Assembly (NCBI GenBank): GCA_049604715.1
Contig: JBMYTV010000002.1
Coordinates: 56,455 to 120,454, forward strand
Origin: Patescibacteria group bacterium
Lineage (GTDB): Bacteria > Patescibacteriota > Patescibacteriia > S139-126 > S139-133
Reading direction: 5' to 3'
Length of the DNA stretch: 64,000 nt
Positions 16,207-45,618 of this stretch are shown here, piece after piece. The stretch's first letter is position 1. Each line of letters starts with the position of its first letter. Both the position numbers and the translations under genes were made by a program. The notes below the pieces were generated by a model. That model did not search any database. It was not told the DNA's origin and worked only from the letters and a program-made list of their open reading frames with translations.

Positions 16207-16515
16207 TCATACATAGTATTTTGTGCTATCAAGGCGGTTATCGCTTTGGAAATCCGCAATCATTTTTTTAATGACTGCGCTTTGGTGCTTTTCACATGAT
16301 GTCCTTTTTTGACACACTTCGGTCATACGTCCGTCACGCACACGTTTAATCTTCAGTACGTACGTTACAACCGAACGAACACTACATTTAGAGCACGACG
16401 TGCCGGCGGGTAGCTTAACCAAAAATTTCTTCAAAGCCGCAGCAGGCAATGTTCTAATCTCAGTGAGAGTCATTGTCTCACCTGATGACTTTTTGTGACG
16501 CTTCTTATCAGCCAT
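16207..16515 (-). CDS. small basic hypothetical protein with four Cys (possible zinc ribbon)
   Basis: 102 aa, Lys/Arg-rich, with CSKC...C...C spacing. Confidence 0.4.
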   Translation of the reverse strand: MADKKRHKKSSGETMTLTEIRTLPAAALKKFLVKLPAGTSCSKCSVRSVVTYVLKIKRVRDGRMTEVCQKRTSCEKHQSAVIKKMIADFQSDNRLDSTKYYV

Positions 16516-16663: not shown

Positions 16664-16936
16664 CTATGCGGCGAATTCAATTTCGTTTTTGGGAATCCAG
16701 CGTTTTTTCCCGGCGGAGAGACTAATCAAGGCTTCATTGCCCTGAATTTCGTGGATGTTTACCTTCCGGCCTGCTTTGATAGTTGCAAAATTTGCCGAGC
16801 CTGTGCAGCACCGCTGCCTTTTATTGCTGATATCCCTTTTCACAACACCCGTCTTTCCATTCTGATTACTACTGTTGCTCCTTTTCTTTTTTTTGACAAT
16901 ACGACGATCACTTCGCTTGTTTTTACGACGTCTCAT
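16664..16936 (-). CDS. small highly basic hypothetical protein
   Basis: 90 aa with a poly-basic N-terminus (RRRKNKRSDRRIVKKKKR). Its own hairpin terminator lies at 16607..16623. Confidence 0.4.
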   Translation of the reverse strand: MRRRKNKRSDRRIVKKKKRSNSSNQNGKTGVVKRDISNKRQRCCTGSANFATIKAGRKVNIHEIQGNEALISLSAGKKRWIPKNEIEFAA

Positions 16937-17077: not shown

Positions 17078-17389
17078 CTACGTTATTTTTGGAGGCCTCC
17101 CAATGGTGAGTGTTATTGCAGGCATCATTTTCTCAGCTTTTGCCTGCGCTGCAGAGATTAACTGTTGCCTTACGCCATTATGGATTGCCGGTGCTTTCTT
17201 GAGCACTTTATCAAAACGACAGTAACCGGCAGGAATAACTGGAAATTGTTCCTTGGTTACTAATAACCAACACGGTACTGGAACGTTTTTTAACTCGTTA
17301 GTTTTTCTGCGAATAAAAATGCCATACAGTACCTCTTTATTACTCCCTTCATTCACTTTTTTCTTCTTTATTACTTTTTTCCTTTTCAA
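17078..17389 (-). CDS. small basic hypothetical protein, 'PCW' paralogue 1
   Basis: 103 aa. The core LYGIFIRR...VPVPCWLLVTKEQFPVIPAGY is shared with the next two ORFs. A terminator hairpin lies at 17048..17069. Confidence 0.45.
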   Translation of the reverse strand: MKRKKVIKKKKVNEGSNKEVLYGIFIRRKTNELKNVPVPCWLLVTKEQFPVIPAGYCRFDKVLKKAPAIHNGVRQQLISAAQAKAEKMMPAITLTIGRPPKIT

Positions 17390-17404
17390 ATAAACTCCTT
17401 TCTT

Positions 17405-17695
17405 TTACAAGCCGCCATGTATACACGGCGGGTTATCAAATTTGACGCTCATCTTAGGCACTGTTCGACTTGCTTCGTTTAGTACCTTTGTCTTGAGCTC
17501 TTTTTCTACAGCATCCTCATTGTGCGTAAGGGTAAGCACCTGAACAAGCGTATACCCTTGCGGAGTGGGATACTTATCTGAACTAGTTAAAACTACCCAA
17601 CATGGAACTGGCTTTTCCGCCATCTCACCACTAACGCGAAACATAAACGCATACAACGTCTTGTTTAACTTTTTACTGCGTAGTGTAGCAACCAT
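17405..17695 (-). CDS. small hypothetical protein, 'PCW' paralogue 2
   Basis: 96 aa. The core LYAFMFRV...KPVPCWVVLTSSDKYPTPQGY is clearly homologous to 17078..17389. Confidence 0.45.
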   Translation of the reverse strand: MVATLRSKKLNKTLYAFMFRVSGEMAEKPVPCWVVLTSSDKYPTPQGYTLVQVLTLTHNEDAVEKELKTKVLNEASRTVPKMSVKFDNPPCIHGGL

Positions 17696-17717
17696 GTTTC
17701 TGTGCCTTGTTTTGAAA

Positions 17718-18005
17718 TTAGTCTAAGACATTCCAGTTGATTTCCCCATCTCTTCTCAATGTCTTCGTCTTCCGGGCTTCTTTCTTTGCTTTCTGGACTG
17801 CCATAGCTCGAGCTGTTTTCGACTTACCAGTGAAAGTACACCGGACAACCTCTGTTTTGCTATCTTTCAAAACACCAAAACAACCTTCTTTTACAGTAAT
17901 CCAGCATTCTCGTGGTTTATGTTTTATTTTTCTTAGTTTATACACTACTAAATACAAAGTGACATCCGAATCCAATGAGTGATCCGTTAATCTTCTCTTC
18001 TTCAT
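17718..18005 (-). CDS. small basic hypothetical protein, divergent 'PCW' paralogue 3
   Basis: 95 aa. LYLVVYKLRK...KPRECWITVKEGCFGV has the same spacing of the Leu-Tyr, Pro and Cys-Trp residues. A perfect 11-bp-stem terminator lies at 18077..18101. Confidence 0.4.
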   Translation of the reverse strand: MKKRRLTDHSLDSDVTLYLVVYKLRKIKHKPRECWITVKEGCFGVLKDSKTEVVRCTFTGKSKTARAMAVQKAKKEARKTKTLRRDGEINWNVLD

Positions 18006-24827: not shown

Positions 24828-26612
24828 ATGCTTGATGATAAACAAATAAAAGAAATTTTACTTGGTCTTAAACTTACAACCAAGGAAGAATTCCCTACAC
24901 TAGAAAAAGATGCGAAAAAAGCCAAGATGTCACTTGAGCAGTTTTTGTATAAGAAAAAAATTATCACAGAAGAGTCGCTCTATGAGATGTACGCAAAGCA
25001 ACTTGACGTACCGTTTGTTAACTTAAAAGAAATGCCTGTGCGCAAGGATATTTTGTTCACACTACCAGAACCACTTGCACAAACACACCAAACAGTAAGT
25101 TTTGATGCAACCGACGACCTAGTAAAGATCGCCACACTCAAACCAGACGACATTCAGATGGTAGACTTTTTGCAAAAAACTACTGACAAAAAGATTAAGG
25201 TCTACTTAACCACACCAAGTGCACTACAAGAATCTCTAAAGCAGTACCAAAAAAGTTTGGAAGCAGAATTTAAAGATATTACGAAAGTTGGTGATGATAC
25301 AGCTGAATTAACTGAAGCAGACCCAGAACAAGCTGCACAAGACGCAGCCAAGGGCGTATCTGGTGGAGACAAAGACCTACATGAACTTGCACAAGATCTA
25401 CCAGTTATCCGCATTGTCGATACACTTCTTGAATATGCAATATTTGAACAAGCATCAGACATTCATATCGAACCAATGGAGAAGAATGTTTTAGTTCGGT
25501 ATCGTATTGATGGTATCTTGCGAGATGTTATGACACTACCAAAATCTTCACAAACCGGTATTGTTGCTCGCATCAAGATTCTATCCAATCTAAAGCTAGA
25601 TGAACACAGGCTACCACAAGATGGTCGATTTAAAGTAGAAAAAGATAACTATAAAGTAGCATTTCGTGTTTCTATTATCCCTGTATATGATGGTGAGAAA
25701 ATTGTTATGCGTCTTTTGAATGAGTCAGGACAAGTACTAGGACTTGAAGATCTTGGATTCCAACCAAAGCCACTAGAACTAGTTAAAGCAAACGTAAAAA
25801 AGCCTCATGGTATGATCTTGGTAACAGGCCCAACTGGTAGCGGTAAAACAACCACGCTGTATACAGTTATGAATATTTTAAACTCTCCTGAAGTAAACAT
25901 TGCAACTGTAGAAGATCCGATTGAGTACCACATGCCTCGTATTAACCAAAGTCAAATCAACCCAAAAATTGACTTTACATTTGCGGCTGGTCTTCGAAGT
26001 CTACTTCGCCAAGACCCTGATATTATTATGGTTGGTGAGATTCGCGACCTTGAAACAGCAGAAATATCTATTCACGCTGCCATGACAGGACACTTGGTAT
26101 TATCTACCCTTCACACTAATAGCGCAGTTGCAACTATCCCCCGCTTACTTGATATGGGTATTGCTGCCTTTTTGGTGGCATCCACAACCAATATTATTAT
26201 TGCACAGCGCTTGGTGCGTAAAATCTGCCAAGACTGTATTACTAGCTACAACCTTACAGAAGAAATGATTAAAGACCTTGAAGCACAGTTTGATGTACCT
26301 GATGTTATGAATACGCTTGAGCGTGAAAAAATCATTAGCGATAAAAACACTCCAATTGATAAGCTGCTATTTTATCGCGGAAAAGGGTGTAAAAAGTGCG
26401 GAGAAACAGGCTATAAAGGACGAATAGGCATTTATGAAGTTCTAGAAGTTACTGACATTATCACCAAGCTCATTATGCAAAAAGCAGCAGTACCAGAACT
26501 ACGCCAGGCTTCTCTTGACCAAGGAATGCTTAGAATGATTGAGGATGGATTTATAAAAGCAAAGAACGGCGTTACAACAATTGAAGAAATTCTCCGCGTA
26601 TCTAAACAGTAG
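24828..26612 (+). CDS. pilB: type IV pilus assembly ATPase PilB/GspE family
   Basis: 594 aa with an N-terminal GspE_N-like domain, Walker A VTGPTGSGKTTTLY, Asp box, His box and the tetracysteine motif (CQDC...CKKCGETGY). Confidence 0.9.
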   Translation: MLDDKQIKEILLGLKLTTKEEFPTLEKDAKKAKMSLEQFLYKKKIITEESLYEMYAKQLDVPFVNLKEMPVRKDILFTLPEPLAQTHQTVSFDATDDLVKIATLKPDDIQMVDFLQKTTDKKIKVYLTTPSALQESLKQYQKSLEAEFKDITKVGDDTAELTEADPEQAAQDAAKGVSGGDKDLHELAQDLPVIRIVDTLLEYAIFEQASDIHIEPMEKNVLVRYRIDGILRDVMTLPKSSQTGIVARIKILSNLKLDEHRLPQDGRFKVEKDNYKVAFRVSIIPVYDGEKIVMRLLNESGQVLGLEDLGFQPKPLELVKANVKKPHGMILVTGPTGSGKTTTLYTVMNILNSPEVNIATVEDPIEYHMPRINQSQINPKIDFTFAAGLRSLLRQDPDIIMVGEIRDLETAEISIHAAMTGHLVLSTLHTNSAVATIPRLLDMGIAAFLVASTTNIIIAQRLVRKICQDCITSYNLTEEMIKDLEAQFDVPDVMNTLEREKIISDKNTPIDKLLFYRGKGCKKCGETGYKGRIGIYEVLEVTDIITKLIMQKAAVPELRQASLDQGMLRMIEDGFIKAKNGVTTIEEILRVSKQ

Positions 26613-26618
26613 CCATTT

Positions 26619-27839
26619 ATGAAATTCCACTACACTGCACGCGACCGTGAAGGCAATCTTGTTTCTGGTGATACAGAAGCAGAATCACGTGAAGCGCTTG
26701 CTAAACAATTACAAACTGATGGGTTGTTACTCACCTCAGCTGAAGCGCAGGGTGGTAGTTCTGTGTCACTTCAAAAAATTGTCACAAAACTCAAAACTAT
26801 TGGCACCATCCCACTTGAAGAGAAAATCTTTTTCACGCAAAATCTTCATGTCATGTTGCATTCTGGTATTTCCCTTTCAGTTGCTATCAAAACATTAGCT
26901 AAACAAACTAAAAATTTACGATTCAAAAATGTACTAAACGACATAGAACAATCTGTTGAACAAGGCACAAGCTTTGCGCAGAGCCTTGCAAAACATCAAA
27001 AAATATTTGGCGAACTATTCGTCAACATGATTGAGGCTGGTGAGACATCAGGTCAACTTGAAAACACACTCATCCAGCTTCATACACAAATGAAAAAAGA
27101 CCACAATCTTATCAGTAAAGTTCGCGGCGCTATGATCTACCCAGCAGTGGTTATCGTTGCAATGGTTGGTGTGATGATTGTGGTTGTTACATTTGTTATT
27201 CCAAAAATTACTGATTTGTTCACGGAAGCACGCGCCGACCTGCCACTACCAACCAAAATACTGATCGTAACAAGTGACTTTCTTATTAACTACGGCGTGT
27301 GGGTGATTATTTTTCTTATATTACTTGCATTTGGATTTTTCAAATTTATCAAGACAGAGCGCGGCAAAAAGATTTGGCACAAAATACTTGTTAAGGGACC
27401 TATTGTAGGGCCAATTATCAAAAAAATTAATTTAGCTCGTTTTTCCCGTACACTTAGTTCGCTTATCAAAACTGATATTCCAATTGTGAAAAGTTTTACT
27501 ATTACATCAAAAACAGTCGGTAACTATTATTACAAAAACATTACCCTCACTGCAGCTGAGCAACTAAAAAAAGGTAGTTCTATTACGACCACACTTGCAA
27601 CTGATGAAGATCTTTTCCCGCCACTTATCACTCAGATGATTTCTGTTGGTGAGGAGAGTGGTTCTCTTGATGATATTTTAGAAAACTTAGCTATTTTTTA
27701 TGAAGAGGATGTGACTGACACTATGGCGAACTTTTCTTCTATTATCGAGCCTGTGCTGATTCTCATTCTAGGCCTTGGTGTAGGAGCTATAGCAGTATCA
27801 GTTATAATGCCGCTATACTCTCTTACACAAAACATTTAG
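26619..27839 (+). CDS. pilC: type IV pilus platform protein PilC/GspF family
   Basis: 406 aa with two GspF repeats and 3 TM segments. Confidence 0.85.
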   Translation: MKFHYTARDREGNLVSGDTEAESREALAKQLQTDGLLLTSAEAQGGSSVSLQKIVTKLKTIGTIPLEEKIFFTQNLHVMLHSGISLSVAIKTLAKQTKNLRFKNVLNDIEQSVEQGTSFAQSLAKHQKIFGELFVNMIEAGETSGQLENTLIQLHTQMKKDHNLISKVRGAMIYPAVVIVAMVGVMIVVVTFVIPKITDLFTEARADLPLPTKILIVTSDFLINYGVWVIIFLILLAFGFFKFIKTERGKKIWHKILVKGPIVGPIIKKINLARFSRTLSSLIKTDIPIVKSFTITSKTVGNYYYKNITLTAAEQLKKGSSITTTLATDEDLFPPLITQMISVGEESGSLDDILENLAIFYEEDVTDTMANFSSIIEPVLILILGLGVGAIAVSVIMPLYSLTQNI

Positions 27840-27844: not shown

Positions 27845-30800
27845 ATGTCAAAACGGGGTTTTACACTTGTAGAGTTATTAGTCACCCTCGGAATCATGGT
27901 CGTGGGCGTTTTAGCAATTACACAACTTACGATACTTTTTTTGCAAATGAATGCAGAACAAAAAGCAAAAGTTACTGCCATTTCACTTGCCAATGAAAAA
28001 CTTGAGATCATCCGTAACCTTCCCTACACCGATATTGGCACTGCGGGTGGTATTCCGCCTGGAAATCTCATTCAAACAGAGCCTATCACTCGAAACAACA
28101 TTGATTTTACAGTCACAACCGAGATTGTGTATATTGATGATCCATTTGATGGTCTTATCAGTACCACAGGAAGCAGCGGATCCATATATAACACAAGTAA
28201 TTCTGAGGTGCTGTACTACTGGGATTTTGACTCGAATACAACTGGAGAAACCCCAAATATTGGCTCTGGCTCTTTAAGCTTTGTGGATACCTCACTAGAT
28301 ACTGGCTATCAAGGCGATGGCATTGCTATGAGTAGTGGCGATCGTATAACTACCACAGCTACTGGTAATGTTGATCTTTCAGAGGGCAGAATAGGCATTT
28401 GGTACAAGCCGAGTCTTAGTAATGCTGGGAATGAGCGAATTGTAGATTTTGAAACTACATCTGGCAATTTCTATATACGACGTCAGAGTAACGAAAAGCT
28501 ACAATTCAATTTTGGCGGACAATCAGCACGCTCATCTGCACTAACATGGAACGCTGATCAATGGTACTTTATCGAAGCTGCCTGGGAGGGTGATAATTAC
28601 AGACAAATATGGCGCGATGGTGTTCCTCTGGCACTAAAAGAAAATGTAGCAACCATCCCAGTTATTGATAACCAAATGAACATTGGCAACAGAGGAGATT
28701 CTAGCGAAATAGTTGAAGGAGTTCTTGATGAGTTGTATATACTCAATAATGCCCATAAATATGAGATATGGGGATATAATTACTCCAATCCGTACGTAGA
28801 CTCAAGTCCTTTAACTACATTTTATTGGAGTATGGACTCAACCAGCGCGTCGCAAACCCCTGAAGTTGGCACTGGCCCTATTACCCTTGGTGGTGACTAC
28901 ACTGAAACAAATCCTGCTGTTAATAACACAGGCATATATTTTAGTAACAACGGCAACCCTGACACTGACCATGCTTACATTCCTGCTAGCGGAAATATTG
29001 ACTTTGCTGAAAGTAGAATTTCTTTTTGGTTTAAGCCTCGAAATAACAATAACGTTAATAACAATAATGACTATTTACTCAAAGCCAGCGGCTGTAGTAG
29101 CGGCATGCTAGAACTAATACGAACTGATGATGAAAAATTAGAATTTTCATATGGCCCCTCAACAAATACTATTACTATAGAATCCCAAAGTTATTCTTGG
29201 AATAAAAACTACTGGTACTTAATTGAGGCAGCATTTGATGATGCGGGTGACACACTTCACGTATATATCAACCGCGAGGAAGTAGCGGTAAGTACCGGCG
29301 TGACTGTTGACGCCCCAATCGGCTGCTCTGGTCTTTATTTTGCAAATGAAAATAGCACATCATCAAAAAACGGTGATGGACATTTTGATGAACTTTATAT
29401 ACTTAACGAAGCGTATCCAGAGAGTGAAACCGCTGATCTTTTGAATACTGATTACAAACGAGCAAAAATAACAGTCGCCTGGGAAAACCAACGAGGAACA
29501 AGAGAGGTTTATTTGATTTCAGACATTGCTCCACCTGGTGTTGAAACAACTGCTGGTGGAGGTACGCTAATTTTCAATGTATTTGATGCTAGCGCTCAAC
29601 CAGTGAATGGAGCAACTGTAGATGTGTACAATGACTCGCTAGATCCTATTATTGACCTAACACTAACCACTGACTTATCAGGTAGACTTGTGCTTCCCGG
29701 AGCTCCAGCAACCTCAACATCATATGAGATTATTGTATCAAAACTAGGGTACAGTACTGACTATACATCTGCCGCCACCTCGACTTACACAAGCCCAGTA
29801 CGTGATCATTTAAGCGTGCTTGAAGGACAAGTCACTGAGGTCAGCTTCTCTATTGACCTCACTAGCACACTTGATATCACAACAGTATCACAAACCCTAC
29901 CTGTTACTTATCAGCTAAATACAGACTCATCAGGTGAGTCACAAACAAGCCCAACACTAGCACAAACCGCAGCTCACTTCTATCCAGTATGGGAAGATTA
30001 TCGTGGTAGTACAACAACCATGACTTATGGGCAAAAATATACTTTTGCCGGCTCAAATCAATGGACCAACGACAGCCAAGTATCTGTTCAAGCTAACCAA
30101 CTAAAGCCCCGCGCAGTTGCTGATAGCAGCGGCAACGTATATATAACGTGGTATGACAACTCATCGGGCGATAACGATATCTACATTCAAAAGTTATCCA
30201 CAGACGGTATCCCGCAATGGTCATATCCGGTCAAAGTAAACGGAGATAGCGGCAGTGCAGACCAGCGAAACCCAGATATAGATATCTTCAGCAACGAACT
30301 CTATATAGTCTGGGAAGATCAACGAAATGACACAGGCGATATCTACTTGCAAAAAGTATCATCAGGAGGAGTTATCCAGTTTGGTAGTGATATAAAAATC
30401 AATTCTGACAGCGGCGCAGACCAACAACAGAAACCAAAGATTACTATTGATTCTGGAGGTGACCTCTATATTGCCTGGATTGATGACCGTGGTGGTAGCG
30501 ATGATGTCTATCTTGACCGTGTTAATAGCGCGGGCTCAAATGTATGGTCATTTGAACAACAAGTAAATAGCAATAGCGCACCTGACATATCTCACTTTGA
30601 TTTTGATCTTGATAGCAATGACGATGCTCACATTGTGTGGCATGACGACCGTGGTGGCGACAATGACATTTATTTTCAAAGTTATGCATCTTCAAGTGTT
30701 GCCTTATTTGGATCTGACCAAACAATAACTGTGCAATCACCTTCATACAATCAACTTAATCCTCACATAGCTCTTGCAAGTGACAATACATTTTATATTG

Positions 30801-31279
30801 GCTGGCACGATGATAGTGGTGGAGACCAAGACGTGTATGTGCTAAATACAGACTCATCTGGCAACTCTCTTTGGGTAAATGAGATACAATTACACCAAGA
30901 AACATCAGGTGACCAACTTATTAGCGACCTTGCGACATATGATGGCACAAAAGTTGTAGCCACTTGGACTGACTACAGTCAAGGTGAGGCAAATGCCTGG
31001 CTTGGAACACTTAACTACGACGGTAGTGAGTCTGCTGCTCCATTTATTGACTTTATACTTCGTGGCACCAAACTCACTCACCAAAGCCCAGATAAAGTTA
31101 AATTTGAACAATCATACGCAACAGATGCAGCTGGCACTATATCAGTCACTGGCCTTGAATGGGACACATATGAGATAGAACTAAATGAACCAGGCGTAAC
31201 GACAACACAAGCAATTCCGTCACTACCTATCACACTCAATCCGAATACCACAGAAACGCTTAAACTCATCGTAGACTAA
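27845..31279 (+). CDS. giant prepilin-like (class III signal peptide) surface protein with two LamG/ConA-like domains, a carboxypeptidase-regulatory-like beta-sandwich and about 7 tandem ~58-aa propeller-like repeats; putative pilus tip adhesin
   Basis: Probable start at the ATG at 27845, giving MSKRG|FTLVELLV, a canonical prepilin leader with Gly-1 and Glu+5. The track start at 27839 uses GTG. There are two LDELYILN/FDELYILN LamG-type motifs. The repeat has the form P.I.xDxxGxLYIxWxDxRxGxxDIYxQ..xxxGxxxWxxxxxVNxDSG, about 7 copies between roughly 30000 and 31000. Confidence 0.75.
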   Translation: MSKRGFTLVELLVTLGIMVVGVLAITQLTILFLQMNAEQKAKVTAISLANEKLEIIRNLPYTDIGTAGGIPPGNLIQTEPITRNNIDFTVTTEIVYIDDPFDGLISTTGSSGSIYNTSNSEVLYYWDFDSNTTGETPNIGSGSLSFVDTSLDTGYQGDGIAMSSGDRITTTATGNVDLSEGRIGIWYKPSLSNAGNERIVDFETTSGNFYIRRQSNEKLQFNFGGQSARSSALTWNADQWYFIEAAWEGDNYRQIWRDGVPLALKENVATIPVIDNQMNIGNRGDSSEIVEGVLDELYILNNAHKYEIWGYNYSNPYVDSSPLTTFYWSMDSTSASQTPEVGTGPITLGGDYTETNPAVNNTGIYFSNNGNPDTDHAYIPASGNIDFAESRISFWFKPRNNNNVNNNNDYLLKASGCSSGMLELIRTDDEKLEFSYGPSTNTITIESQSYSWNKNYWYLIEAAFDDAGDTLHVYINREEVAVSTGVTVDAPIGCSGLYFANENSTSSKNGDGHFDELYILNEAYPESETADLLNTDYKRAKITVAWENQRGTREVYLISDIAPPGVETTAGGGTLIFNVFDASAQPVNGATVDVYNDSLDPIIDLTLTTDLSGRLVLPGAPATSTSYEIIVSKLGYSTDYTSAATSTYTSPVRDHLSVLEGQVTEVSFSIDLTSTLDITTVSQTLPVTYQLNTDSSGESQTSPTLAQTAAHFYPVWEDYRGSTTTMTYGQKYTFAGSNQWTNDSQVSVQANQLKPRAVADSSGNVYITWYDNSSGDNDIYIQKLSTDGIPQWSYPVKVNGDSGSADQRNPDIDIFSNELYIVWEDQRNDTGDIYLQKVSSGGVIQFGSDIKINSDSGADQQQKPKITIDSGGDLYIAWIDDRGGSDDVYLDRVNSAGSNVWSFEQQVNSNSAPDISHFDFDLDSNDDAHIVWHDDRGGDNDIYFQSYASSSVALFGSDQTITVQSPSYNQLNPHIALASDNTFYIGWHDDSGGDQDVYVLNTDSSGNSLWVNEIQLHQETSGDQLISDLATYDGTKVVATWTDYSQGEANAWLGTLNYDGSESAAPFIDFILRGTKLTHQSPDKVKFEQSYATDAAGTISVTGLEWDTYEIELNEPGVTTTQAIPSLPITLNPNTTETLKLIVD

Positions 31280-31896
31280 TGAATAATTTACATAACAATA
31301 AAGGAATTTCACTATTCGAAGTACTGATTACTGTTGGTATATTTGTCGTGGTAGTGGTTGTGTGGAATCAAATGATCATTCAAAGTTATCGTTCAGCTGC
31401 TTTTGGCCAAGAGCAACAAGAAGCTATTCGGCAAGCAGAGCGTGGTATAGAACAAATGACAAAAGAAATCCGTGAAATGTCCACAGCAGAAGACGGCTCA
31501 TATGCTCTTGAATTAGCTGGTGACAATGAAATTATCTTTTACTCAGACATTGACCAGGACGTACTTACTGAACGCGTTCGATACTACTTGTCAGGTACAA
31601 CACTTTATAGAGGCACAGTCGAACCGTCTGGAGACCCACTAAGTTATGACACGGGGAGTGAGGTTGTAGCTCAGCTCGCAACTTATGTAAACAACACTAG
31701 CACAAGCATGTTTACTTATTACAATGATCAGTACCCATTTGATGATGTAAACAATCCCCTTCCTGCACCAGCTCGTTTGATTGAAACAAAACTACTTCAT
31801 GTTTTCTTGCGCATAAATATCGACCCAACCCAAGCACCTAACGATTTTGATGTTGAATCTGATGTGCAACTGAGGAATCTAAAGTCAAACTTATGA
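31279..31896 (+). CDS. pseudopilin / minor pilin with prepilin-type N-terminus
   Basis: MNNLHNNKG|ISLFEVLITVGIFVVVVVV: Gly-1, Glu+5 and a hydrophobic alpha1 helix. 205 aa. Confidence 0.7.
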   Translation: MNNLHNNKGISLFEVLITVGIFVVVVVVWNQMIIQSYRSAAFGQEQQEAIRQAERGIEQMTKEIREMSTAEDGSYALELAGDNEIIFYSDIDQDVLTERVRYYLSGTTLYRGTVEPSGDPLSYDTGSEVVAQLATYVNNTSTSMFTYYNDQYPFDDVNNPLPAPARLIETKLLHVFLRINIDPTQAPNDFDVESDVQLRNLKSNL

Positions 31897-33290
31897 GAAA
31901 GCACATACATACAAACCAGGATGGTACATTGCTTATTATAGTTGTTGTGATGACAGGAATATTTGTATTTATGCTTTCTGGATACTTAAGTTTGATGACA
32001 TATCAGCAGCGACTAACCAATGCCAAAATTGCTGGCATACAATCTCTCCATATTGCAGAAGCTGGAGTAAACTACTACCGTTGGCATTTAGCACATGACC
32101 CTGATGATTATACTGATGGCACTGGTGGTCCTGGTCCATATGTTCATGATTACTATGACCCAACAACCGGTCTTATTGGGCAATATAGTCTTGAAATTGA
32201 CCCCCCTGAGCCAGGTTCTACTATAGTAACTATCCGCTCAACTGGCTGGGTTAACGATTATCCTGATATTGAACGCACTGTTGAGGTTACCTATGGAAAA
32301 CCATCACTAGCTAAATACTCATTTCTAACCAATAGTGACGTTTGGCTAGGTGATAGTGAATCAGTAAGTGGCGAAATGCACTCTAATGGCGGTGTACGTA
32401 TGGACGGCACCAATGATTCACTTGTTACTTCAGCATTAGCTACATACACCTGCACCCCATCACACGGCTGCTCATACGAGACAAAAGATGGAGTCTGGGG
32501 CACTGGCCCAAATAGCGATCTTTGGAGTTTTCCTGTAACTGAGGTTGATTTTGCTACAATTACACTTGATCTGGCTGACATAAAAACAGAAGCAGAAACA
32601 AACGGAGACTACTATCCTGACTCGAGTTATGGATACCACATAACATTTTTAGCTGACGGTACTTACAACATCTACACTGTAACTTCCCTACAGTCTAGTT
32701 TGTACCAAATTGATGATGATGATTTTTCAGGATGTGAGTCAAAATCAGAAGGCATTGCAAGTGAAACATTTATCGGCAACTACCCCATTCCAACCAACAG
32801 CACTATCTTTGTTGAAGATGATCTGTGGATTGATGGCGTACTTAATGGTAAAATAACAGTAGCAGCCGCACGGTTTCCAGCAAATCCATCAACCTATGCC
32901 AACATTTACATAAATAACAACCTAACTTATGTGGCGCGTGATAATACAAATGCGCTTGGCTTAGTTGCTCAAAAAAATATCCAAGTACCACGGCATGCAC
33001 CTTCTGACCTTACTATTGATGCGATCTTGCTTGCACAAAACGGAAGAGTATATAGAGCATATTACTGCTGGTGGCCACACAGACTTGTAACCAACTCCAT
33101 AGAAGTATACGGTGGTATTATCACCAACAAAATCTGGACATGGACATGGGTCTCTGGTTCAACCACAGTTGATGGATATGATAGTACCAATAGCATCTTT
33201 CATAACAACTTATTATTTGCACCACCTCCCTACTTCCCAACAAGTGGTGAATACCAATTTATTACCTGGGAAGAAATTCCAACACCCTAA
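31893..33290 (+). CDS. PilX-like pilus-associated protein (N-terminal membrane anchor, beta-rich ectodomain)
   Basis: The N-terminal TM segment is followed by QSLHIAEAGVNYY, which resembles the PilX_N motif (A..AAEAG). 465 aa. It overlaps the upstream gene by 4 nt. Confidence 0.45.
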   Translation: MRKHIHTNQDGTLLIIVVVMTGIFVFMLSGYLSLMTYQQRLTNAKIAGIQSLHIAEAGVNYYRWHLAHDPDDYTDGTGGPGPYVHDYYDPTTGLIGQYSLEIDPPEPGSTIVTIRSTGWVNDYPDIERTVEVTYGKPSLAKYSFLTNSDVWLGDSESVSGEMHSNGGVRMDGTNDSLVTSALATYTCTPSHGCSYETKDGVWGTGPNSDLWSFPVTEVDFATITLDLADIKTEAETNGDYYPDSSYGYHITFLADGTYNIYTVTSLQSSLYQIDDDDFSGCESKSEGIASETFIGNYPIPTNSTIFVEDDLWIDGVLNGKITVAAARFPANPSTYANIYINNNLTYVARDNTNALGLVAQKNIQVPRHAPSDLTIDAILLAQNGRVYRAYYCWWPHRLVTNSIEVYGGIITNKIWTWTWVSGSTTVDGYDSTNSIFHNNLLFAPPPYFPTSGEYQFITWEEIPTP

Positions 33291-33295: not shown

Positions 33296-34354
33296 ATGTT
33301 TCAATCACAATCACCAACAGCCTGGGGGCTTGATATAGGAGAAAAATCACTGAAGATGTCAGCGGTTATTCAGTCTGGTGATAATTTTGCTCTTTCTAAC
33401 TACGGATCACTGACAATTGAAGACGAAGAAGTAACAAAAGGCATTCTGCAGGACCCTGACTTGCTTGGTAAAAAAATCAAAAAACTTCTCAAAGAACATA
33501 CATATGGCAGAAAAGTGAAGACACCCTTTGTTCATGCGTGTATTCCTGACTCAGATACATTTGTAAAGCTTATTGATATTCCTGATATGACTGATGAGGA
33601 AATACCAGAAGCTGTACGCTGGGCATCAGAACAACACATTCCACTTTCACCTGATGATATATATATTGATTGGAATATTGTAAGACATGATCCACAAAAT
33701 AAAAAAATATATGTTTTGATTGGAGCAGTTCAAAAATCAATCAGCAATCAACTCACAGAAGCTATTAAAAGAGCAGATCTAGTACCACTATCCCTTGATG
33801 TTGAAGCAACAGCCATCGTCAGAGCTCTCCAGAGCCTAACTGTACCTACAAATACCTCACATGCGACTGCATTCCTTGATCTTGGCGCTACGCATTCAAC
33901 GATTATTATATTTGCGCGTGATACCATTCAGTTTGTCTCTACTATTCCATTTAGTGGAGAAGAAATAACTAGCACACTTGCAACTGAGCTTAGCATCTCA
34001 AAAGCTGAAGCAGAAAAGGCCAAAATAGTATGCGGACTTACCAATCCAGATTGTGAAGATGCACTAAAACAGGTTCTAAAAAAGGACCTTGATGCTATGA
34101 CTAAAAAAATTAATAGTTCTTTTGCCTTTTACAAAGAGCACACATTTGATCCATTACCTATAAACCAACTTATTTTGTGCGGGGGCGGATCACTTCTTGA
34201 TGGTATTGTTGGCCACTTAGGTAAAGAAATTGAATGCGATGTCAGACTTGGCAATTTAGCTCCATTTATTTCATCCTCATCAAAGTCAGACTTTGCGAAA
34301 AAGAATTTATCCTACACAACAGCCTTAGGCCTTGCTATGAAAGCATATGAGTAA
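33296..34354 (+). CDS. pilM: type IV pilus assembly protein PilM (actin-like ATPase)
   Basis: 352 aa with N-terminal WGLDIGEKSLKMSAV and an actin/FtsA-like fold signature (LCGGGSLLDGI). Confidence 0.8.
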   Translation: MFQSQSPTAWGLDIGEKSLKMSAVIQSGDNFALSNYGSLTIEDEEVTKGILQDPDLLGKKIKKLLKEHTYGRKVKTPFVHACIPDSDTFVKLIDIPDMTDEEIPEAVRWASEQHIPLSPDDIYIDWNIVRHDPQNKKIYVLIGAVQKSISNQLTEAIKRADLVPLSLDVEATAIVRALQSLTVPTNTSHATAFLDLGATHSTIIIFARDTIQFVSTIPFSGEEITSTLATELSISKAEAEKAKIVCGLTNPDCEDALKQVLKKDLDAMTKKINSSFAFYKEHTFDPLPINQLILCGGGSLLDGIVGHLGKEIECDVRLGNLAPFISSSSKSDFAKKNLSYTTALGLAMKAYE

Positions 34355-34922
34355 ATTATCCCTAAACTTATTATCACCAACAGAGCGCATGGAGTCATCC
34401 CTGCAGTGGCATTATGTGATTATAAAAAATGTCATTTTTATGATTCTTTCAGTAACGTTTGTAATTGCTGTTATGCTTTTTGGTGCTAAGCTAATTTTGC
34501 TGAATAGACTTACTGAAGCAGAAATGCAAATATCTTTAGTTAATGCTTCACTAGCCGGAACAAATCAAAAAATAGCAAATGTAAATAAAGATTTGAGAGA
34601 TATAGAAAAAATACAAAAAGAATTTGTTCCTTGGTCTGAGTCACTATGGAATGTACTGACGCTTGTCCCAAACGAAATACAAGTCTCATCATTAAGGTTG
34701 TCATCGGATGAGAGCACTATCTACATAGACGGTATTGCGCAAACCCGAGAATCTTTACTCGAATTCCAGGAGTCACTTGAGACTGCTCAATTTGCTGAAA
34801 ATGTATACCTACCACTGGCAAGTCTTTTACAAAAAACAGACATAACATTTAATGTAACTATTACAGTCGCACCTGTTCTAGTTTCTGATTTACAAGAACA
34901 TGAAACTGAAGGAATTGAATAA
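34347..34922 (+). CDS. pilN: PilN-like bitopic protein
   Basis: 191 aa with a single N-terminal TM helix then a coiled-coil. Position after pilM with an 8-nt overlap. Confidence 0.5.
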   Translation: MSKLSLNLLSPTERMESSLQWHYVIIKNVIFMILSVTFVIAVMLFGAKLILLNRLTEAEMQISLVNASLAGTNQKIANVNKDLRDIEKIQKEFVPWSESLWNVLTLVPNEIQVSSLRLSSDESTIYIDGIAQTRESLLEFQESLETAQFAENVYLPLASLLQKTDITFNVTITVAPVLVSDLQEHETEGIE

Positions 34923-35439
34923 AAAACAAATAGTACATGTTAGCTTTGCACTTAGTGGCGCAGTAATTTTGGGCTTACTTGTGTTTATTGTACTTACAGT
35001 ACGTGATATTAAGGTTATTAGTGGCGACATATATTCTAAACGCGTAGCTCTAGAAACGAGATATCAATCAGGACTATCAATGCGTGAAAGTATTCAGCAG
35101 CTAGATGAAATAGAACCTTCAATTGAGAATGTTTCAACTGCTTTTGTATACAAAGAGCAAACACTAGAATTTGTAAATGACCTAGAAGAAACTGCGAGCA
35201 CATATAGACTAGAGCAGATTATCAATATCCCCGAAATCGACGCTGAGGACAAAGCCGTCACGGAATCACCCATCGGACTGACTTTGCGCGGCGAGGCAGA
35301 AGACATTTTTGCATATATTAATGCACTTGATAGCAAACCATACTATATCGTAGTGAATCAAATTGAACTAACAAATATCACAAGTGGTAATAGCACCGGT
35401 CTAACATGTGTTATTTCAGGTACAATTCATTGGAGATAA
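34900..35439 (+). CDS. pilO: PilO-like bitopic protein
   Basis: 179 aa with a single N-terminal TM helix. Gene order pilM-N-O. Confidence 0.45.
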   Translation: MKLKELNKKQIVHVSFALSGAVILGLLVFIVLTVRDIKVISGDIYSKRVALETRYQSGLSMRESIQQLDEIEPSIENVSTAFVYKEQTLEFVNDLEETASTYRLEQIINIPEIDAEDKAVTESPIGLTLRGEAEDIFAYINALDSKPYYIVVNQIELTNITSGNSTGLTCVISGTIHWR

Positions 35440-39993: not shown

Positions 39994-41343
39994 ATGACGC
40001 TCGGAACACGAAGATTTCTCTACATAACTGCAATGGTACTATTTACCGTGAGCGCGCCGTTACTTGTTTTGTATACGGCGGGTTTTCGTTTTGATTTTTA
40101 CCGTAATGCAATACGATCAACAGGCAGTTTGTTTATTAAAACACTTCCTCAAGACGCATCAGTCTATATCAACAACAACCTCGTTGACACCAACACCCCA
40201 CTGCGCCTCAATCATTTAACCCCCAACGTCTACACTGTTCGTATTGAAAAAGAAGGCTATCATACCTGGAAAAAAGACCTAGCTGTATCAGATAAAAAAA
40301 CCACATTTGCTGAAAACATTATTTTGTGGAAGACACAACCAGAAGGCACTGAGTTGCTAGATGCGTCGGTTGATTTCTTCTCTTTTGATCATGATGAGAG
40401 ATACATAATATACATAGAAGAAAAGACACTAAAAGCATATCACCTAGCTAGCGAGATAGAAGTAACTCTACTACAGACCATTGAAACTGACACTGTCAAT
40501 ATCAAATGGTCAGAGCATGGCAGTGATGCGCTTATTACTATTGGCTCTACAACATGGCTTTTTGACCATGATACACTTGAGCTAACAAATCTTTCAAATA
40601 ATATTTCTGGTGATGATATACGTTTCCACCCTACACAAAATCAACTACTTACATTCAATAACCAGCGAGGTATTTACACTTACAGCCTTGTAACGGGTAA
40701 AACCGAGTCACTTCTCATGCGACCTGTTCTAGATTACAGCATTGTGGAAGAAGACGTATACTATATCACTGGCCCTGATCCTACAATTTTAACCCGCAAA
40801 CAACGAGATATTGATGAAGAACCACCTTCTTTTGTTTTACCAGAAATAAGTACACTATCTCTTGAGAGAATCATAGACCACCGTGCTTATGTATACGATG
40901 AGAATGAACGCACTCTTTATATTTTGCATTTACAGCCTGAATCATTTAATCAACAATCTCATATACTCCAGGATGTTGACCAGTGGGAATTCACAAAAGA
41001 TGGAACAAAGCTACTACTCTTTAATGAATGGGAAGTTTCATTTATCACTCTTGATGACATGAAAACAAAGGTCATAACCCGTGTAAGTACACCACTTGAA
41101 CATGTATATTGGCATGCTGATGACAACTATATTATCACCGTAGCTGAGGCTGCTGTTACAGCTATTGAGCTTGATACACGCGACATACAAAACAAACACG
41201 CGCTTTGGCAAAACACCGAAGTCATACAAGCGACCTTATCAACTGACGGTGAGCATATTTATCTAACAACAAAAGAAGGTGACGCGCACCTTCTTAGAAA
41301 ACTCAAAGTTACTGATCTAGAAACTTCACTACTACCACTATAA
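39994..41343 (+). CDS. membrane-anchored PEGA-domain protein with beta-rich C-terminal domain
   Basis: The N-terminal TM helix is followed by a PEGA-like segment (ASVYINNNLVDTNTPLRLNHLTPNVYTVRIEKEGYHTWKKDLAV). 449 aa. Confidence 0.55.
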   Translation: MTLGTRRFLYITAMVLFTVSAPLLVLYTAGFRFDFYRNAIRSTGSLFIKTLPQDASVYINNNLVDTNTPLRLNHLTPNVYTVRIEKEGYHTWKKDLAVSDKKTTFAENIILWKTQPEGTELLDASVDFFSFDHDERYIIYIEEKTLKAYHLASEIEVTLLQTIETDTVNIKWSEHGSDALITIGSTTWLFDHDTLELTNLSNNISGDDIRFHPTQNQLLTFNNQRGIYTYSLVTGKTESLLMRPVLDYSIVEEDVYYITGPDPTILTRKQRDIDEEPPSFVLPEISTLSLERIIDHRAYVYDENERTLYILHLQPESFNQQSHILQDVDQWEFTKDGTKLLLFNEWEVSFITLDDMKTKVITRVSTPLEHVYWHADDNYIITVAEAAVTAIELDTRDIQNKHALWQNTEVIQATLSTDGEHIYLTTKEGDAHLLRKLKVTDLETSLLPL

Positions 41344-42176: not shown

Positions 42177-43007
42177 CTAGAACTTTTCTAAAACCCGTTG
42201 CCACACATCATTTATTGTCATAGGATCTTTTTTGTAAATTATGTCAATTGACTTCACGTCTACTGTTTGACTTCTATCATCAATACCTGGAGCAGAAATC
42301 ACAAACTCAAACCCTTCGGGAGACTGATATAGTTCACTAAAAACAAACTCAGCACGTGCAATGTTCCAATCCCCACTAGTACTAGGCGGGATGTACTGTG
42401 CAATAAAGTAGTCATAATTATCTAAATCAGTCTCATGGTTATAGCCATCGATCCGCAGCCGATCAAATCCCTCTTGTAAAGGAAAATTGTAATTAACAAC
42501 TCGTGCTGATCGTGGAGGAGCAAGTAAAAAGTTCTCTATACTCCTATACTGCGGTACGCGCTGACATAACCACCATTGTTTTTCCTCATCTCTAAGACAC
42601 GGCCATTCAATCTCTTCTAAGGCTTTATTCTGAACACCATGCCAGGCAAAATTCCAACCACTTTCACCTACAGCACCACCCAGCTGAATAAGTGGAACAG
42701 TATCCGCTCTATAAGTCAAAACCACCTCCACGGTGTCATATTGACGCGGAATAAACGAATGAATATATACAGGATCAATGATTACCTGCCAAAATTGATC
42801 ACCCACAAACCCTTTGGTTGTCAGTACTCGTAGCTCTGGATCTGGACCTGTAACCATAACATGCTCAGATGACACTGAATGCGATAGTATTCGCTCACCA
42901 TCAAGATCAAGATCAAGATACACCACATAACCAACAATACACACGAGACTTATAGCAAAAAGTGTGTGCAAAAATAATAGAAATATACGCTGTGGTGTAT
43001 AAGACAT
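42177..43007 (-). CDS. hypothetical protein with N-terminal membrane anchor
   Basis: 276 aa with a single N-terminal TM helix. Its start codon overlaps the start of the divergent + strand ORF. Confidence 0.4.
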   Translation of the reverse strand: MSYTPQRIFLLFLHTLFAISLVCIVGYVVYLDLDLDGERILSHSVSSEHVMVTGPDPELRVLTTKGFVGDQFWQVIIDPVYIHSFIPRQYDTVEVVLTYRADTVPLIQLGGAVGESGWNFAWHGVQNKALEEIEWPCLRDEEKQWWLCQRVPQYRSIENFLLAPPRSARVVNYNFPLQEGFDRLRIDGYNHETDLDNYDYFIAQYIPPSTSGDWNIARAEFVFSELYQSPEGFEFVISAPGIDDRSQTVDVKSIDIIYKKDPMTINDVWQRVLEKF

Positions 43008-43062
43008 GTTTCTAGTATACCATTTTCTTTTCTACAACATAAAAAAGCTATATACTGTATAT

Positions 43063-44298: not shown

Positions 44299-44310
44299 TA
44301 TACTAAAAAT

Positions 44311-45602: not shown

Positions 45603-45618
45603 CGTAGTGCCCTTTCTT

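What the first reader, a model, noticed from the sequence alone, without database searches (positions are those of the whole stretch)
27845..31279. Giant 1145-aa prepilin-like protein combining lectin-like LamG domains and a novel ~58-aa repeat propeller: candidate pilus-tip adhesin
Immediately after pilB-pilC lies a protein with a canonical class III prepilin leader (MSKRG|FTLVE). It has two concanavalin/LamG-like domains marked by LDELYILN and FDELYILN, a CarboxypepD_reg-like beta-sandwich, and about seven tandem repeats. The repeat pattern is …LYI.W.D.R.G..DIY.Q…G…W…V.VN.DSG…, a repeat type I cannot assign to a named family. A pilin-anchored lectin or propeller this large would be displayed on the type IV pilus. 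In episymbiotic CPR bacteria it is a strong candidate for host-cell attachment.
Basis: partly seen in the sequence, partly recalled or inferred. Interest (0 to 1): 0.7.

Follow-up and report, generated by a model that had tools for sequence, protein, structure and literature searches.

The report
Giant lectin-and-propeller type IV minor pilin
This gene in an ultrasmall (Patescibacteria) bacterium encodes an oversized type IV pilus minor subunit, with two lectin-like domains and a seven-bladed propeller added to a small GspI-type pilin, so it is probably a pilus-tip binding protein, an elaborate new variant of a kind already described.

Summary
Window 27845-31279(+) is a 1144-aa ORF directly after pilB-pilC. 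It has a canonical prepilin leader (MSKRG|FTLVE), two Laminin_G_3 domains, a CarboxypepD_reg-like sandwich, seven tandem repeats and a second C-terminal sandwich. The repeat period is 54 aa, not 58.

3. The two LamG domains are inserted inside the pilin head, in the β2-β3 loop. The propeller is inserted between two β-sandwich domains.

The core pilin and the two genes after it (about 205 aa with Glu5, about 465 aa without Glu5) form a triad conserved across Patescibacteria. In other lineages the same scaffold carries other cargo (β-helix, BNR, DUF2341).

Best reading: a tip-complex subunit that displays ligand-binding modules. Binding and host attachment are untested. Modular lectin pilins (S. 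sanguinis PilC) and lectin- or propeller-bearing minor pilins in Saccharibacteria are already published, so this is a new variant of a known kind.

The parts
24828..26612 (+). pilB, the assembly ATPase (594 aa)
   Evidence: Pfam T2SSE 431.6 bits and MshEN 43.3 bits.
26619..27839 (+). pilC, the platform protein (406 aa)
   Evidence: Pfam T2SSF 182.7 bits in two stretches.
27845..28156 (+). Giant pilin, aa 1-104. It holds the leader MSKRG, the mature N-terminus FTLVE, the alpha1 helix (aa 8-57) and beta1-beta2 of the pilin head, ending in the invariant IYIDDPFDG.
   Evidence: N_methyl and TIGR02532 pass threshold. DSSP on the model gives H8-57, E78-83 and E86-97. The motif is invariant in orthologues. 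The stand-alone homologue P0204 folds as a GspI-like pilin.
28205..28750 (+). LamG domain 1 (aa ~121-302, ends in LDELYILN), the first of two inserts in the beta2-beta3 loop of the pilin head
   Evidence: Laminin_G_3 41.1 bits against GA 27.6. pLDDT is about 80-89. It is absent from the 676-742-aa relatives, and the 940-aa relatives have a single LamG that is closer to LamG2.
28811..29410 (+). LamG domain 2 (aa ~323-522, ends in FDELYILN). It holds the protein's only two cysteines, C417 and C494.
   Evidence: Laminin_G_3 43.0 bits. Both cysteines are invariant in 10 orthologues. The single LamG of P0032 is closer to this copy (37% identity, 122 bits) than to LamG1 (30%, 92 bits).
29426..29542 (+). 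Giant pilin, aa 528-566. This is beta3-beta4 of the pilin head (LLNTDYKRAKITVAWENQRGTREVYLISDIAPPGVE), the second half of the split pilin module.
   Evidence: In P0011, P0012, P0033, L006 and L007 this block follows DDPFDG after about 10 aa. The stand-alone pilins P0204 and P0197 end right after it. DSSP gives E537-548 and E551-561, matching beta3-beta4 of the P0204 model.
29552..29884 (+). CarboxypepD_reg-like beta-sandwich (aa ~570-680)
   Evidence: PF13620 30.5 bits against GA 32.3. This domain is present in nearly all family members.
29942..31030 (+). Seven-bladed beta-propeller (aa ~700-1062). The blades start at about aa 700, 753, 807, 862, 916, 971 and 1024. The blade consensus is LNPDIAIDSSNNIYIVWEDNRNGNGDIYLQKIDSTGTKLWSSDIKINSDTGSDN.
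31040..31279 (+). C-terminal beta-sandwich (aa ~1066-1144) plus the stop codon
   Evidence: Weak SpaA and CarboxypepD_reg hits. In the 430-480-aa relatives this domain follows the first sandwich directly.
31279..31896 (+). A 205-aa minor prepilin (MNNLHNNKG|ISLFE, Glu5 present), the J-like partner by position
   Evidence: N_methyl 17.5 bits; ComGE and GspJ models match the N-terminal helix only. A homologue lies directly downstream of the core pilin in 52 of 59 loci.
31893..33290 (+). A 465-aa pilin-like protein with a hydrophobic N-terminus (..NQDG|TLLIIVVV) and no Glu5, the K/PilX-like partner by position
   Evidence: No Pfam family; ComGG_2 15.9 bits. It is found in 51 of 59 loci, always about 460-470 aa and never with Glu5. 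Its profile finds no PDB relative.
33296..35439 (+). pilM (33296-34354), pilN (34347-34922) and pilO (34900-35439), the alignment subcomplex
   Evidence: PilM_2 132.7 bits, PilN 23.9 bits, PilO 20.5 bits. The gene order is conserved in L001 and L002.

Best explanation
The gene encodes the GspI/PilV-type core minor pilin of a Patescibacteria type IV pilus, enlarged about eight-fold by inserted modules.

Shown here:
- It has a class III signal peptide with Glu5 and sits in the order pilB-pilC-[this gene]-[205-aa prepilin with Glu5]-[465-aa pilin-like protein without Glu5]-pilMNO.
- Its pilin head is GspI-like by fold.
- Two paralogous LamG (concanavalin-A-like) domains are inserted in the beta2-beta3 loop of that head.
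- After the head come a CarboxypepD_reg-like sandwich, a CylK/SBBP-type seven-bladed propeller and a second sandwich.
- In other lineages the same scaffold is bare or carries different cargo.

Inferred:
- After cleavage by the prepilin peptidase, the protein joins the two downstream minor pilins in an I-J-K-like priming complex on the PilC platform. Pili grow from the base, so this complex ends up at the pilus tip.
- The roughly 1000 aa of extra mass could not pack into the filament shaft. It would project from the tip, with the sandwich as a stalk.
- There the LamG pair and the propeller would act as ligand-binding modules, most probably for glycans of a partner cell's envelope. Retraction or tethering would then bring the cells together.
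For: Pilin identity. Leader, Glu5 and N_methyl are met.

Insertion of the LamG pair. There is a natural series with zero LamG (P0011, P0012, P0033, L006, L007), one (P0032, L005, L008) or two (the window protein and nine orthologues) between the invariant DDPFDG and LNTDYKR blocks.

Conserved triad. The 205-like and 465-like genes follow the core pilin in 52 and 51 of 59 loci. The 465-aa family never has Glu5, as in GspK.

Cargo swapping on the same scaffold. Other members carry a beta-helix, BNR_2 plus fn3, DUF2341, DUF4114, or a LamG placed after the sandwich.

Divergence. The cargo modules diverge somewhat faster (46-48% identity) than the pilin and sandwich modules (59-65%).

Precedent. 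S. sanguinis PilC is a ConA-like lectin pilin and PilA is GspI-like, both in a tip complex (PMC9934059). Modular pilins with PF13385 or PF13620 are widespread, including in CPR (PMC8179133). TM7x PilX2, which bears a propeller, is needed for efficient host binding (PMC11623550).
Against: Nothing here tests binding, tip location or processing.
- The J-like and K-like assignments of the neighbours rest on position, on Glu5 status and on N-terminal-helix HMM hits only. Their profiles find no PDB relatives.
- The sequence models for GspI and PilV are not met.
- The GspI-like fold was shown on a 149-aa homologue, not on the window protein itself. In the window model only the DSSP pattern is available, and pTM is 0.43, so the domain arrangement is unreliable.
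- No major pilin, PilD or PilT was found among the window ORFs examined.
- The residues conserved in the propeller are blade-periodic (W-x-D-x-R). They look structural and do not define a ligand pocket.
- The closest structural relatives of the propeller are mostly enzymes (CylK, PL42, GH145, Vgb).
- The lifestyle and host of this organism are unknown.
Confidence: 0.55

Rival explanations
1. Assembly-only subunit. The protein is the essential I-type priming pilin, and its extra domains serve the machine rather than adhesion. They might span or anchor in the cell wall or S-layer, gate the exit, or bind DNA or substrates for uptake.
For: The core (pilin, sandwich, sandwich) is conserved across Patescibacteria without LamG or propeller, so the core function is independent of them. 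No PilT is present in the window. In TM7x most single minor-pilin deletions had no binding phenotype (PMC11623550).
Against: The variable, lineage-specific cargo and the faster-diverging LamG and propeller modules are the pattern expected of outward-facing recognition modules rather than machine parts. LamG is a classic extracellular ligand-binding fold.
Confidence: 0.18
2. Pilus-delivered enzyme. The propeller is catalytic, for example a polysaccharide lyase or hydrolase, and the LamG domains act as carbohydrate-binding modules. The pilus tip would then cut or remodel the partner's envelope glycans.
Against: Conservation is blade-periodic, not concentrated on one face or on a few blades. Thousands of relatives have 7 or 13-14 near-identical blades and T9SS tails, which suggests surface repeat proteins rather than enzymes. 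CylK's active site needs its separate N-terminal domain (PMC8916777), which is absent here.
Confidence: 0.12
3. Not a filament subunit. The class III signal is used only to export the protein and anchor it in the membrane by the N-terminal helix, or on a short pseudopilus as in type II secretion. The protein would then sit at the cell surface and not on a long pilus.
For: The fold match is to T2SS pseudopilins. No major pilin is encoded in the window. The very large globular load might hinder extrusion.
Against: The PilM/N/O genes and the MshEN-type PilB are T4aP-like. Patescibacteria are seen to make pili, and homologous operons encode them in TM7x (PMC11623550). Proteins of similar size, such as PilY1 and CofB, ride on pilus tips (PMC8179133).
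Confidence: 0.1

Closest known systems
Streptococcus sanguinis tip complex: PilC (modular minor pilin with an Ig-like fold and a ConA-like lectin module) and PilA (GspI-like minor pilin) (PMC9934059, PMC8179133)
   Different: Here the GspI-like subunit itself is the carrier. The lectin domains are duplicated and inserted into the pilin head's beta2-beta3 loop instead of being appended after it. A seven-bladed propeller is added as well. There is no detectable sequence similarity. Glycan binding is shown for PilC but not for this protein.
Nanosynbacter lyticus TM7x PilX1 (jelly-roll, L-type-lectin-like) and PilX2 (heptabladed propeller, PLL-lectin-like) (PMC11623550, published as PMC12206443)
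   Same: Patescibacteria T4P minor pilins that carry lectin-like jelly-roll or seven-bladed propeller cargo and are proposed as tip adhesins. PilX2 deletion lowers host binding. CV39L and PLL lectins are structural neighbours in both cases.
   Different: PilX2's propeller is described as RCC1-type, and PilX1 and PilX2 lack a predicted PilD signal. The window protein has a canonical signal, a CylK/SBBP-type propeller, and both kinds of module in one chain. Homology to PilX1 or PilX2 was not tested because no TM7x sequence was at hand.
GspI, XcpV and EpsI, the I subunit of the GspI-J-K (HIJK) tip complex of type II secretion and type IVa pili (PDB 3CI0, 5BW0, 2RET)
   Different: GspI proteins are about 100-120 aa with no extra domains. 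The sequence models TIGR01707 and TIGR02523 are far below cut-off. No H-like subunit was identified.
CylK C-terminal seven-bladed beta-propeller / SBBP repeat (Pfam PF06739, NCBIfam TIGR04275) (PDB 7RON; PMC8916777)
   Different: The Pfam SBBP (9.7 bits against 20.5) and TIGR04275 (20.8 against 85) thresholds are not met. Strand B carries W-x-D-x-R-x-G in place of the SBBP G-x-T motif. CylK is a cytoplasmic enzyme with an extra Ca-binding domain.
PilY1/PilC tip adhesin of diderm T4aP (C-terminal propeller IPR008707)
   Same: A large tip-associated protein with a beta-propeller and variable N-terminal adhesive modules. It rides on the minor-pilin complex.
GspK (an alpha-domain inserted into the pilin beta-sheet)
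   Same: It is a precedent for a domain inserted inside, not appended to, a minor pilin head (PMC8179133 discussion).
   Different: The insertion is in the K subunit, is helical and has no known binding role. Here the insertion is in the I-type subunit and consists of two lectin-fold domains.

Membership tests
Type IV pilin (class III signal peptide; PF07963 / TIGR02532) | A short polar leader ending in Gly, followed by F-T-L-x-E (Glu5) and a hydrophobic helix of about 20 aa | tested here: met
   MSKRG|FTLVELLVTLGIMVVGVLAI. N_methyl 22.7 bits against 21.2; TIGR02532 20.6 against 16.3. The motif is invariant in 10 orthologues.
Type IV pilin (class III signal peptide; PF07963 / TIGR02532) | Lollipop fold: a long alpha1 helix packed on an antiparallel beta-sheet | tested here: met
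   The stand-alone homologue P0204 models at pLDDT 93.5 with H12-62 and four strands. The window model shows H8-57, E78-83, E86-97 and, after the LamG pair, E537-548 and E551-561.
Type IV pilin (class III signal peptide; PF07963 / TIGR02532) | Cleavage and N-methylation by the prepilin peptidase, and incorporation into a filament | not testable with these tools
   No PilD was found among the window ORFs scanned. The rest of the genome was not available.
GspI/PilV-type core minor pilin (I subunit of the HIJK tip complex) | The globular head superposes on GspI-family structures | tested here: met
GspI/PilV-type core minor pilin (I subunit of the HIJK tip complex) | Reaches the family sequence-model cut-off (TIGR01707 gspI, TIGR02523 PilV) | tested here: not met
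   gspI 13.8-17.1 bits against 44.35; PilV 26.2-29.9 bits against 52.2. Only the N-terminal helix aligns, even after the LamG insert is spliced out.
GspI/PilV-type core minor pilin (I subunit of the HIJK tip complex) | Encoded with, and binds, J-type and K-type partners, with K lacking Glu5 | tested here: inconclusive
   A conserved downstream pair is present: about 205 aa with Glu5 and about 465 aa without Glu5, in 52 and 51 of 59 loci. Their heads have no Pfam or PDB relatives. Complex formation was not tested.
Modular pilin sensu Raynaud et al. 2021 (PMC8179133) | An N-terminal IPR012902 pilin motif plus at least one domain that is not specific to T4P biology | tested here: met
   N_methyl plus two PF13385 domains, a PF13620-like domain and a propeller.
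Modular pilin sensu Raynaud et al. 2021 (PMC8179133) | The extra module is grafted after the pilin module through a short linker | tested here: not met
   This holds for the sandwich, propeller and second sandwich, but not for the LamG pair. The LamG pair lies between beta2 and beta3 of the pilin head.
Laminin_G_3 / concanavalin-A-like lectin superfamily (PF13385) | Score above the Pfam gathering threshold | tested here: met
   41.1 and 43.0 bits against 27.6 on the isolated segments. Foldseek matches laminin LG4-5 and neurexin LNS.
Laminin_G_3 / concanavalin-A-like lectin superfamily (PF13385) | Carbohydrate or other ligand binding | not testable with these tools
   This needs glycan arrays or ITC.
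CarboxypepD_reg (PF13620) | Score above the Pfam gathering threshold | tested here: inconclusive
   The window protein scores 30.5 bits against 32.3. Relatives pass, for example P0033 at 43.0 and L012 at 57.8.
SBBP beta-propeller repeat (PF06739 / TIGR04275) | Score above the family thresholds | tested here: not met
   PF06739 E 1.1, 9.7 bits against 20.5. TIGR04275 20.8 bits against 85.
SBBP beta-propeller repeat (PF06739 / TIGR04275) | Seven-bladed propeller of about 55-aa blades, homologous to a solved SBBP-type propeller (CylK) | tested here: met
   No PD40 hit appeared even at E <= 10.
PilY1/PilC C-terminal propeller | Pfam or structural match to the PilY1 propeller | tested here: not met
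DGR (diversity-generating retroelement) target | A template/variable repeat pair near the gene | tested here: not met
   The only DNA repeats in the gene are its own blades, and there is no second copy elsewhere in the 64 kb. The rest of the genome could not be tested.

The most novel reading that the evidence does not exclude
The GspI-type core minor pilin of Patescibacteria is a dedicated cargo-swapping display scaffold. It has two permissive insertion sites: the beta2-beta3 loop of the pilin head, and the junction between its two beta-sandwich domains. Lineages would load interchangeable recognition modules at these sites (LamG, SBBP-type propeller, BNR propeller, beta-helix, DUF2341, DUF4114). 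The cargo would then set which partner cell an episymbiont can attach to, making it a readable genomic marker of host range. The window protein would be one of the most heavily loaded examples.
Probability: 0.3. Interest if true: 0.65.

Novelty: new variant of a known kind. Interest (0 to 1): 0.45.

Why it matters
How ultrasmall Patescibacteria recognise and hold on to partner cells is largely unknown, and almost none of them are cultured.

This analysis links a conserved three-gene minor-pilin set, analogous to the GspI-J-K tip complex, to a variable set of lectin-like and propeller cargo carried on the I-type subunit. If the cargo is the recognition module, then comparing it across genomes would give testable predictions of host specificity. 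The LamG pair and the propeller would be defined fragments for glycan-array or cell-binding experiments.

The work also shows that a very abundant 54-aa propeller repeat, present in more than 20,000 protein clusters, lacks any family model. This is useful for annotation.

The general idea is already published: modular lectin pilins at pilus tips, including in Saccharibacteria. The advance here is architectural detail and breadth, not a new principle.

Tried and rejected
- Direct sequence search of the whole protein against the PDB found nothing.
- A profile of the pilin head (A3) against the PDB matched only the N-terminal helix of geopilins. GspI-likeness could therefore be shown only by fold.
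- Splicing out the LamG insert did not raise the PilV or GspI HMM scores beyond the helix.
- Profiles of the 205-aa and 465-aa neighbours against the PDB gave no head-domain relatives. Pfam finds nothing in the 465-aa protein.
- PD40/TolB, RCC1, WD40 and PilY1 assignments for the repeat were considered and rejected, because there were no HMM hits and CylK is clearly the best structural match.
- A DGR was sought as a template repeat in the window and none was found.
- A look-up of the exact protein's contig failed, so the organism is known only as 'Patescibacteria group bacterium'. Its nearest genome relatives are Patescibacteria and Paceibacter MAGs.
- tRNA and Rfam scans of the window were empty and gave no taxonomic handle.
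- A search for a second prepilin motif found only the 205-aa gene. No major pilin, PilD or PilT turned up among 20 further ORFs scanned.
Contacts between the two halves of the split pilin head and the location of conserved residues on the propeller therefore could not be inspected.


Full report

Yes. Window 27845-31279(+) is an uninterrupted 1144-codon ORF. A GTG at 27839 overlaps the pilC stop by one base and is an alternative start. It would only lengthen the leader from MSKRG to MTMSKRG. The mature N-terminus FTLVELLVTLGIMVVGVLAI is a canonical class III signal. Pfam N_methyl scores 22.7 bits against a gathering threshold (GA) of 21.2, and TIGR02532 scores 20.6 against 16.3. G5, F6, T7, L8 and E10 are invariant in ten full-length orthologues of 46-63% identity.

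The genes before it are pilB (T2SSE plus MshEN) and pilC (T2SSF). The genes after it are a 205-aa prepilin (G|ISLFE), a 465-aa pilin-like protein without Glu5, pilM, pilN, pilO and a 136-aa ORF. This order is conserved in distant orthologues (L001 and L002).

**2. Domain anatomy**

The full-length Pfam scan reports only N_methyl and CarboxypepD_reg (30.5 bits, just below GA 32.3). When the segments are scanned alone, two Laminin_G_3 domains pass threshold clearly, at 41.1 and 43.0 bits against GA 27.6. They are paralogues, 30% identical with E 1.6e-21. The protein's only two cysteines (C417 and C494) are both in LamG2 and are invariant.

The repeat region contains seven copies with a 53-55-aa period, not about 58. 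A single blade used as a query scores 81.8 bits against the rest of the protein, against a maximum of 11.2 in 300 shuffles. A further beta-sandwich follows at aa ~1066-1144.

The AlphaFold2 model built from the 10-sequence alignment has a mean pLDDT of 75.5. The propeller reaches 85-94 and the LamG domains about 80-89. pTM is 0.43, so the domains are credible but their mutual arrangement is not.

**3. The repeat is not an orphan**

phmmer of aa 701-1144 against 1.84 billion cluster representatives finds 21,125 proteins at E <= 1e-3 and 1,955 at E <= 1e-30. In the best 150 hits the blade HMM finds mostly 7 or 12-14 copies, spaced 54-55 aa apart, which corresponds to single and double propellers. 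Only about 16 of the 170 proteins held at that point have a prepilin N-terminus. Many of the others end in type IX secretion sorting domains (Por_Secre_tail, FlgD_ig).

No Pfam or NCBIfam model covers the repeat. SBBP gives E 1.1, and TIGR04275 gives 20.8 bits against a cut-off of 85. Three results nevertheless agree on its nearest relative:
- The Foldseek top hit is CylK.
- A 20-blade profile finds only CylK in the whole PDB, with one partial match per blade on the motif g..D.yl.Ky.s.G..lW.

CylK's C-terminal domain is a seven-bladed propeller with a Ca site at each blade junction (PMC8916777). The repeat is therefore a diverged branch of the SBBP/CylK-type blade. It is very common in extracellular proteins of uncultured bacteria, and formally unnamed.

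The invariant residues are blade-periodic: W-x-D in all seven blades, and Arg two positions further on in most. This pattern looks structural, comparable to the WD40 tetrad, and does not define a ligand pocket. That last point is inference.

**4. The pilin module and where the extra domains sit**

Shorter relatives give a natural deletion series.
- P0011, P0012, P0033, L006 and L007 (676-742 aa) read ...IYIDDPFDG-(about 10 aa)-LLNTDYKRvkvtvsW...DIAPKGIE and then continue with sandwich, propeller and sandwich.
- P0032, L005 and L008 (about 940 aa) have one LamG between DDPFDG and LNTDYKR. It is closer to LamG2.
- The window protein and nine orthologues have two LamG domains there.

Most Patescibacteria relatives are 430-480 aa, with pilin, sandwich and sandwich but no LamG and no propeller. 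They come from Woese-, Gottesman-, Chisholm-, Kuenen-, Doudna-, Portnoy- and Moraniibacteria and from Paceibacter. Some genomes have the bare pilin only. P0204 (149 aa) and P0197 (152 aa) end right after ...APKNIEP. P0204 sits in the same slot, pilC-[149]-[198]-[469].

Two conclusions follow. First, the family is the I-type (GspI/PilV) core minor pilin by fold. It is not so by sequence model, where the PilV and GspI HMMs align only the helix and stay far below cut-off. Second, in the window protein the LamG pair is an insertion in the beta2-beta3 loop of the pilin head. The propeller is an insertion between the two sandwich domains.

**5. The conserved triad**

tblastn with the window's neighbours shows 205-like and 465-like genes directly downstream of the core pilin in 52 and 51 of 59 loci. 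The 205-aa family always has G|FTLIE with Glu5. The 465-aa family is always about 460-470 aa and never has Glu5. This is the hallmark of the capping K subunit, a point from established T2SS/T4P knowledge that is also summarised in PMC9934059. Their heads have no Pfam or PDB relatives, so the J-like and K-like labels are analogies by position, not demonstrated homology.

**6. Cargo swapping**

The same pilin-plus-sandwich scaffold carries different cargo elsewhere:
- a right-handed beta-helix in P0018 (PF13229, 100.8 bits);
- a LamG placed after the sandwich in P0016;
- BNR_2 plus fn3 in L024;
- DUF2341 in L012;
- DUF4114 in L039.

Among the ten orthologues, the LamG and propeller modules are 46-48% identical on average, against 59-65% for the pilin and sandwich modules. 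The difference is moderate and does not amount to hypervariability. No DGR-type template repeat exists in the window.

**7. Most likely mechanism**

Shown: pilin signal, operon position, GspI-type head (on a homologue), insertion topology, lectin-fold and propeller cargo, and the conserved triad.

Inferred: the protein is cleaved by PilD and nucleates pilus assembly with the 205-aa and 465-aa proteins as an I-J-K-like complex. It therefore ends at the pilus tip, because pili grow from the base, and about 1000 aa of globular load cannot pack into the shaft. There it would present the LamG pair and the propeller as binding modules, most likely for envelope glycans of a partner cell. I put about 0.55 on this reading.

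The rivals are an assembly-only role (0.18), a pilus-delivered enzyme (0.12) and a surface anchor that is not in a filament (0.10).

**8. Comparison with what is known**

- Modular pilins are an established class. An InterPro survey found more than 1,200 of them. PF13385 and PF13620 were among the commonest extra modules, several CPR examples were included, and the largest case was 860 aa (PMC8179133).
- S. sanguinis PilC is a pilin with an Ig-like and a ConA-like lectin module and has demonstrated glycan binding. PilA is GspI-like, and PilA, PilB and PilC are modelled as a tip complex (PMC9934059).
- In Saccharibacteria, TM7x PilX1 (jelly roll) and PilX2 (heptabladed propeller) are proposed tip adhesins, and PilX2 deletion halves host binding (PMC11623550, PMC12206443).

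Four things differ here. The carrier is the I-type subunit. The lectin domains are inserted inside the pilin head. Lectin-like and propeller modules sit together in one 1144-aa chain. The propeller is CylK/SBBP-type and not RCC1-type. This is a new variant of a known kind.

**9. Verdict**

The 'novel repeat' claim is overturned, and the 'tip adhesin' claim is plausible, has precedent and is untested. Interest is moderate at 0.45. The useful outcomes are the scaffold-and-cargo picture across Patescibacteria and the recognition of a very large propeller-repeat family that has no model.

Noticed in passing
window 29942-31030; proteins P0023-P0170: The 54-aa blade (consensus ..P.IAvD.sGNfvvVW.D.RnGn.DIY.Q.y...G...w....vN.dsg..Q) defines a very large family that has no model. 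21,125 50%-identity clusters match at E <= 1e-3. Copy numbers cluster at 7 and 12-14. Many members carry type IX secretion C-terminal sorting domains. The family looks like a candidate new Pfam entry related to SBBP.
   Followed up: partly
P0018, P0016, L024:5950-10539, L012:5983-8241, L039:5899-8103: The same GspI-like pilin plus CarboxypepD_reg scaffold carries other cargo in other Patescibacteria: a right-handed beta-helix, LamG, BNR_2 plus fn3, DUF2341 and DUF4114.
   Followed up: partly
window 31893-33290 and homologues in 51 loci: This 465-aa pilin-like family has a conserved length (about 460-470 aa), a hydrophobic N-terminus that never has Glu5, no Pfam family and no PDB sequence relative. 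It is invariably the third gene of the minor-pilin triad.
   Followed up: partly
L011, L013, L015-L018, L021 and others (core pilin N-termini): Many core pilins from Woesebacteria-like MAGs read G|QSLIGVL or G|QVYIGLI. They lack both Phe1 and Glu5, although the rest of the module is well conserved. This is unusual for an I-type subunit.
   Followed up: no
window 27845-31279: The full-length hmmscan failed to report Laminin_G_3 at E <= 0.01, yet both domains score 41-43 bits when scanned as segments. This is a caution for automated annotation of long multi-domain proteins.
   Followed up: yes
L058:1269-5246: In the Parcubacteria locus that holds the bare 149-aa pilin, a 1325-aa protein with no Pfam hit on record lies between pilB and pilC. 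It may be a separately encoded cargo or adhesin.
   Followed up: no
window 17078-18005 (- strand): Three tandem small paralogous ORFs of 103, 96 and 95 aa have basic N-termini and a shared P-x-P/E-C-W-[VLI] motif. Two more very basic small ORFs lie at 16207-16515 and 16664-16936. Function unknown.
   Followed up: no
window 39994-41343 (+): A 449-aa protein with a PEGA domain and a weak beta-propeller-like C-terminal region. It does not contain the pilin's blade repeat.
   Followed up: partly
window 55097-56983 (-): A subtilase (Peptidase_S8) fused to FG-GAP repeats. The DNA direct repeat D2 (55482 and 55788) lies inside this gene.
   Followed up: no
window 43006-61455: A large surface-polysaccharide gene cluster with flippases, GT2 and GT4 glycosyltransferases, epimerases/dehydratases and a Bac_transf priming transferase. 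It also holds a fused ATP-sulfurylase/APS-kinase at 57043-58704, which hints at sulfated glycans in a reduced genome.
   Followed up: no
window 289-2835 (-): An 848-aa VirD4/TrwB-like coupling protein (TrwB_AAD_bind, T4SS-DNA_transf).
   Followed up: no
window 45619-47871 (-) and 42177-43007 (-): A 750-aa and a 276-aa ORF with no Pfam hit. L058 also has a 750-aa unannotated gene after its minor-pilin triad. Homology between the two 750-aa proteins was not checked.
   Followed up: no
window 1-64000: No tRNA gene and no Rfam family at gathering threshold in 64 kb. GC content is 39.4%.
   Followed up: yes
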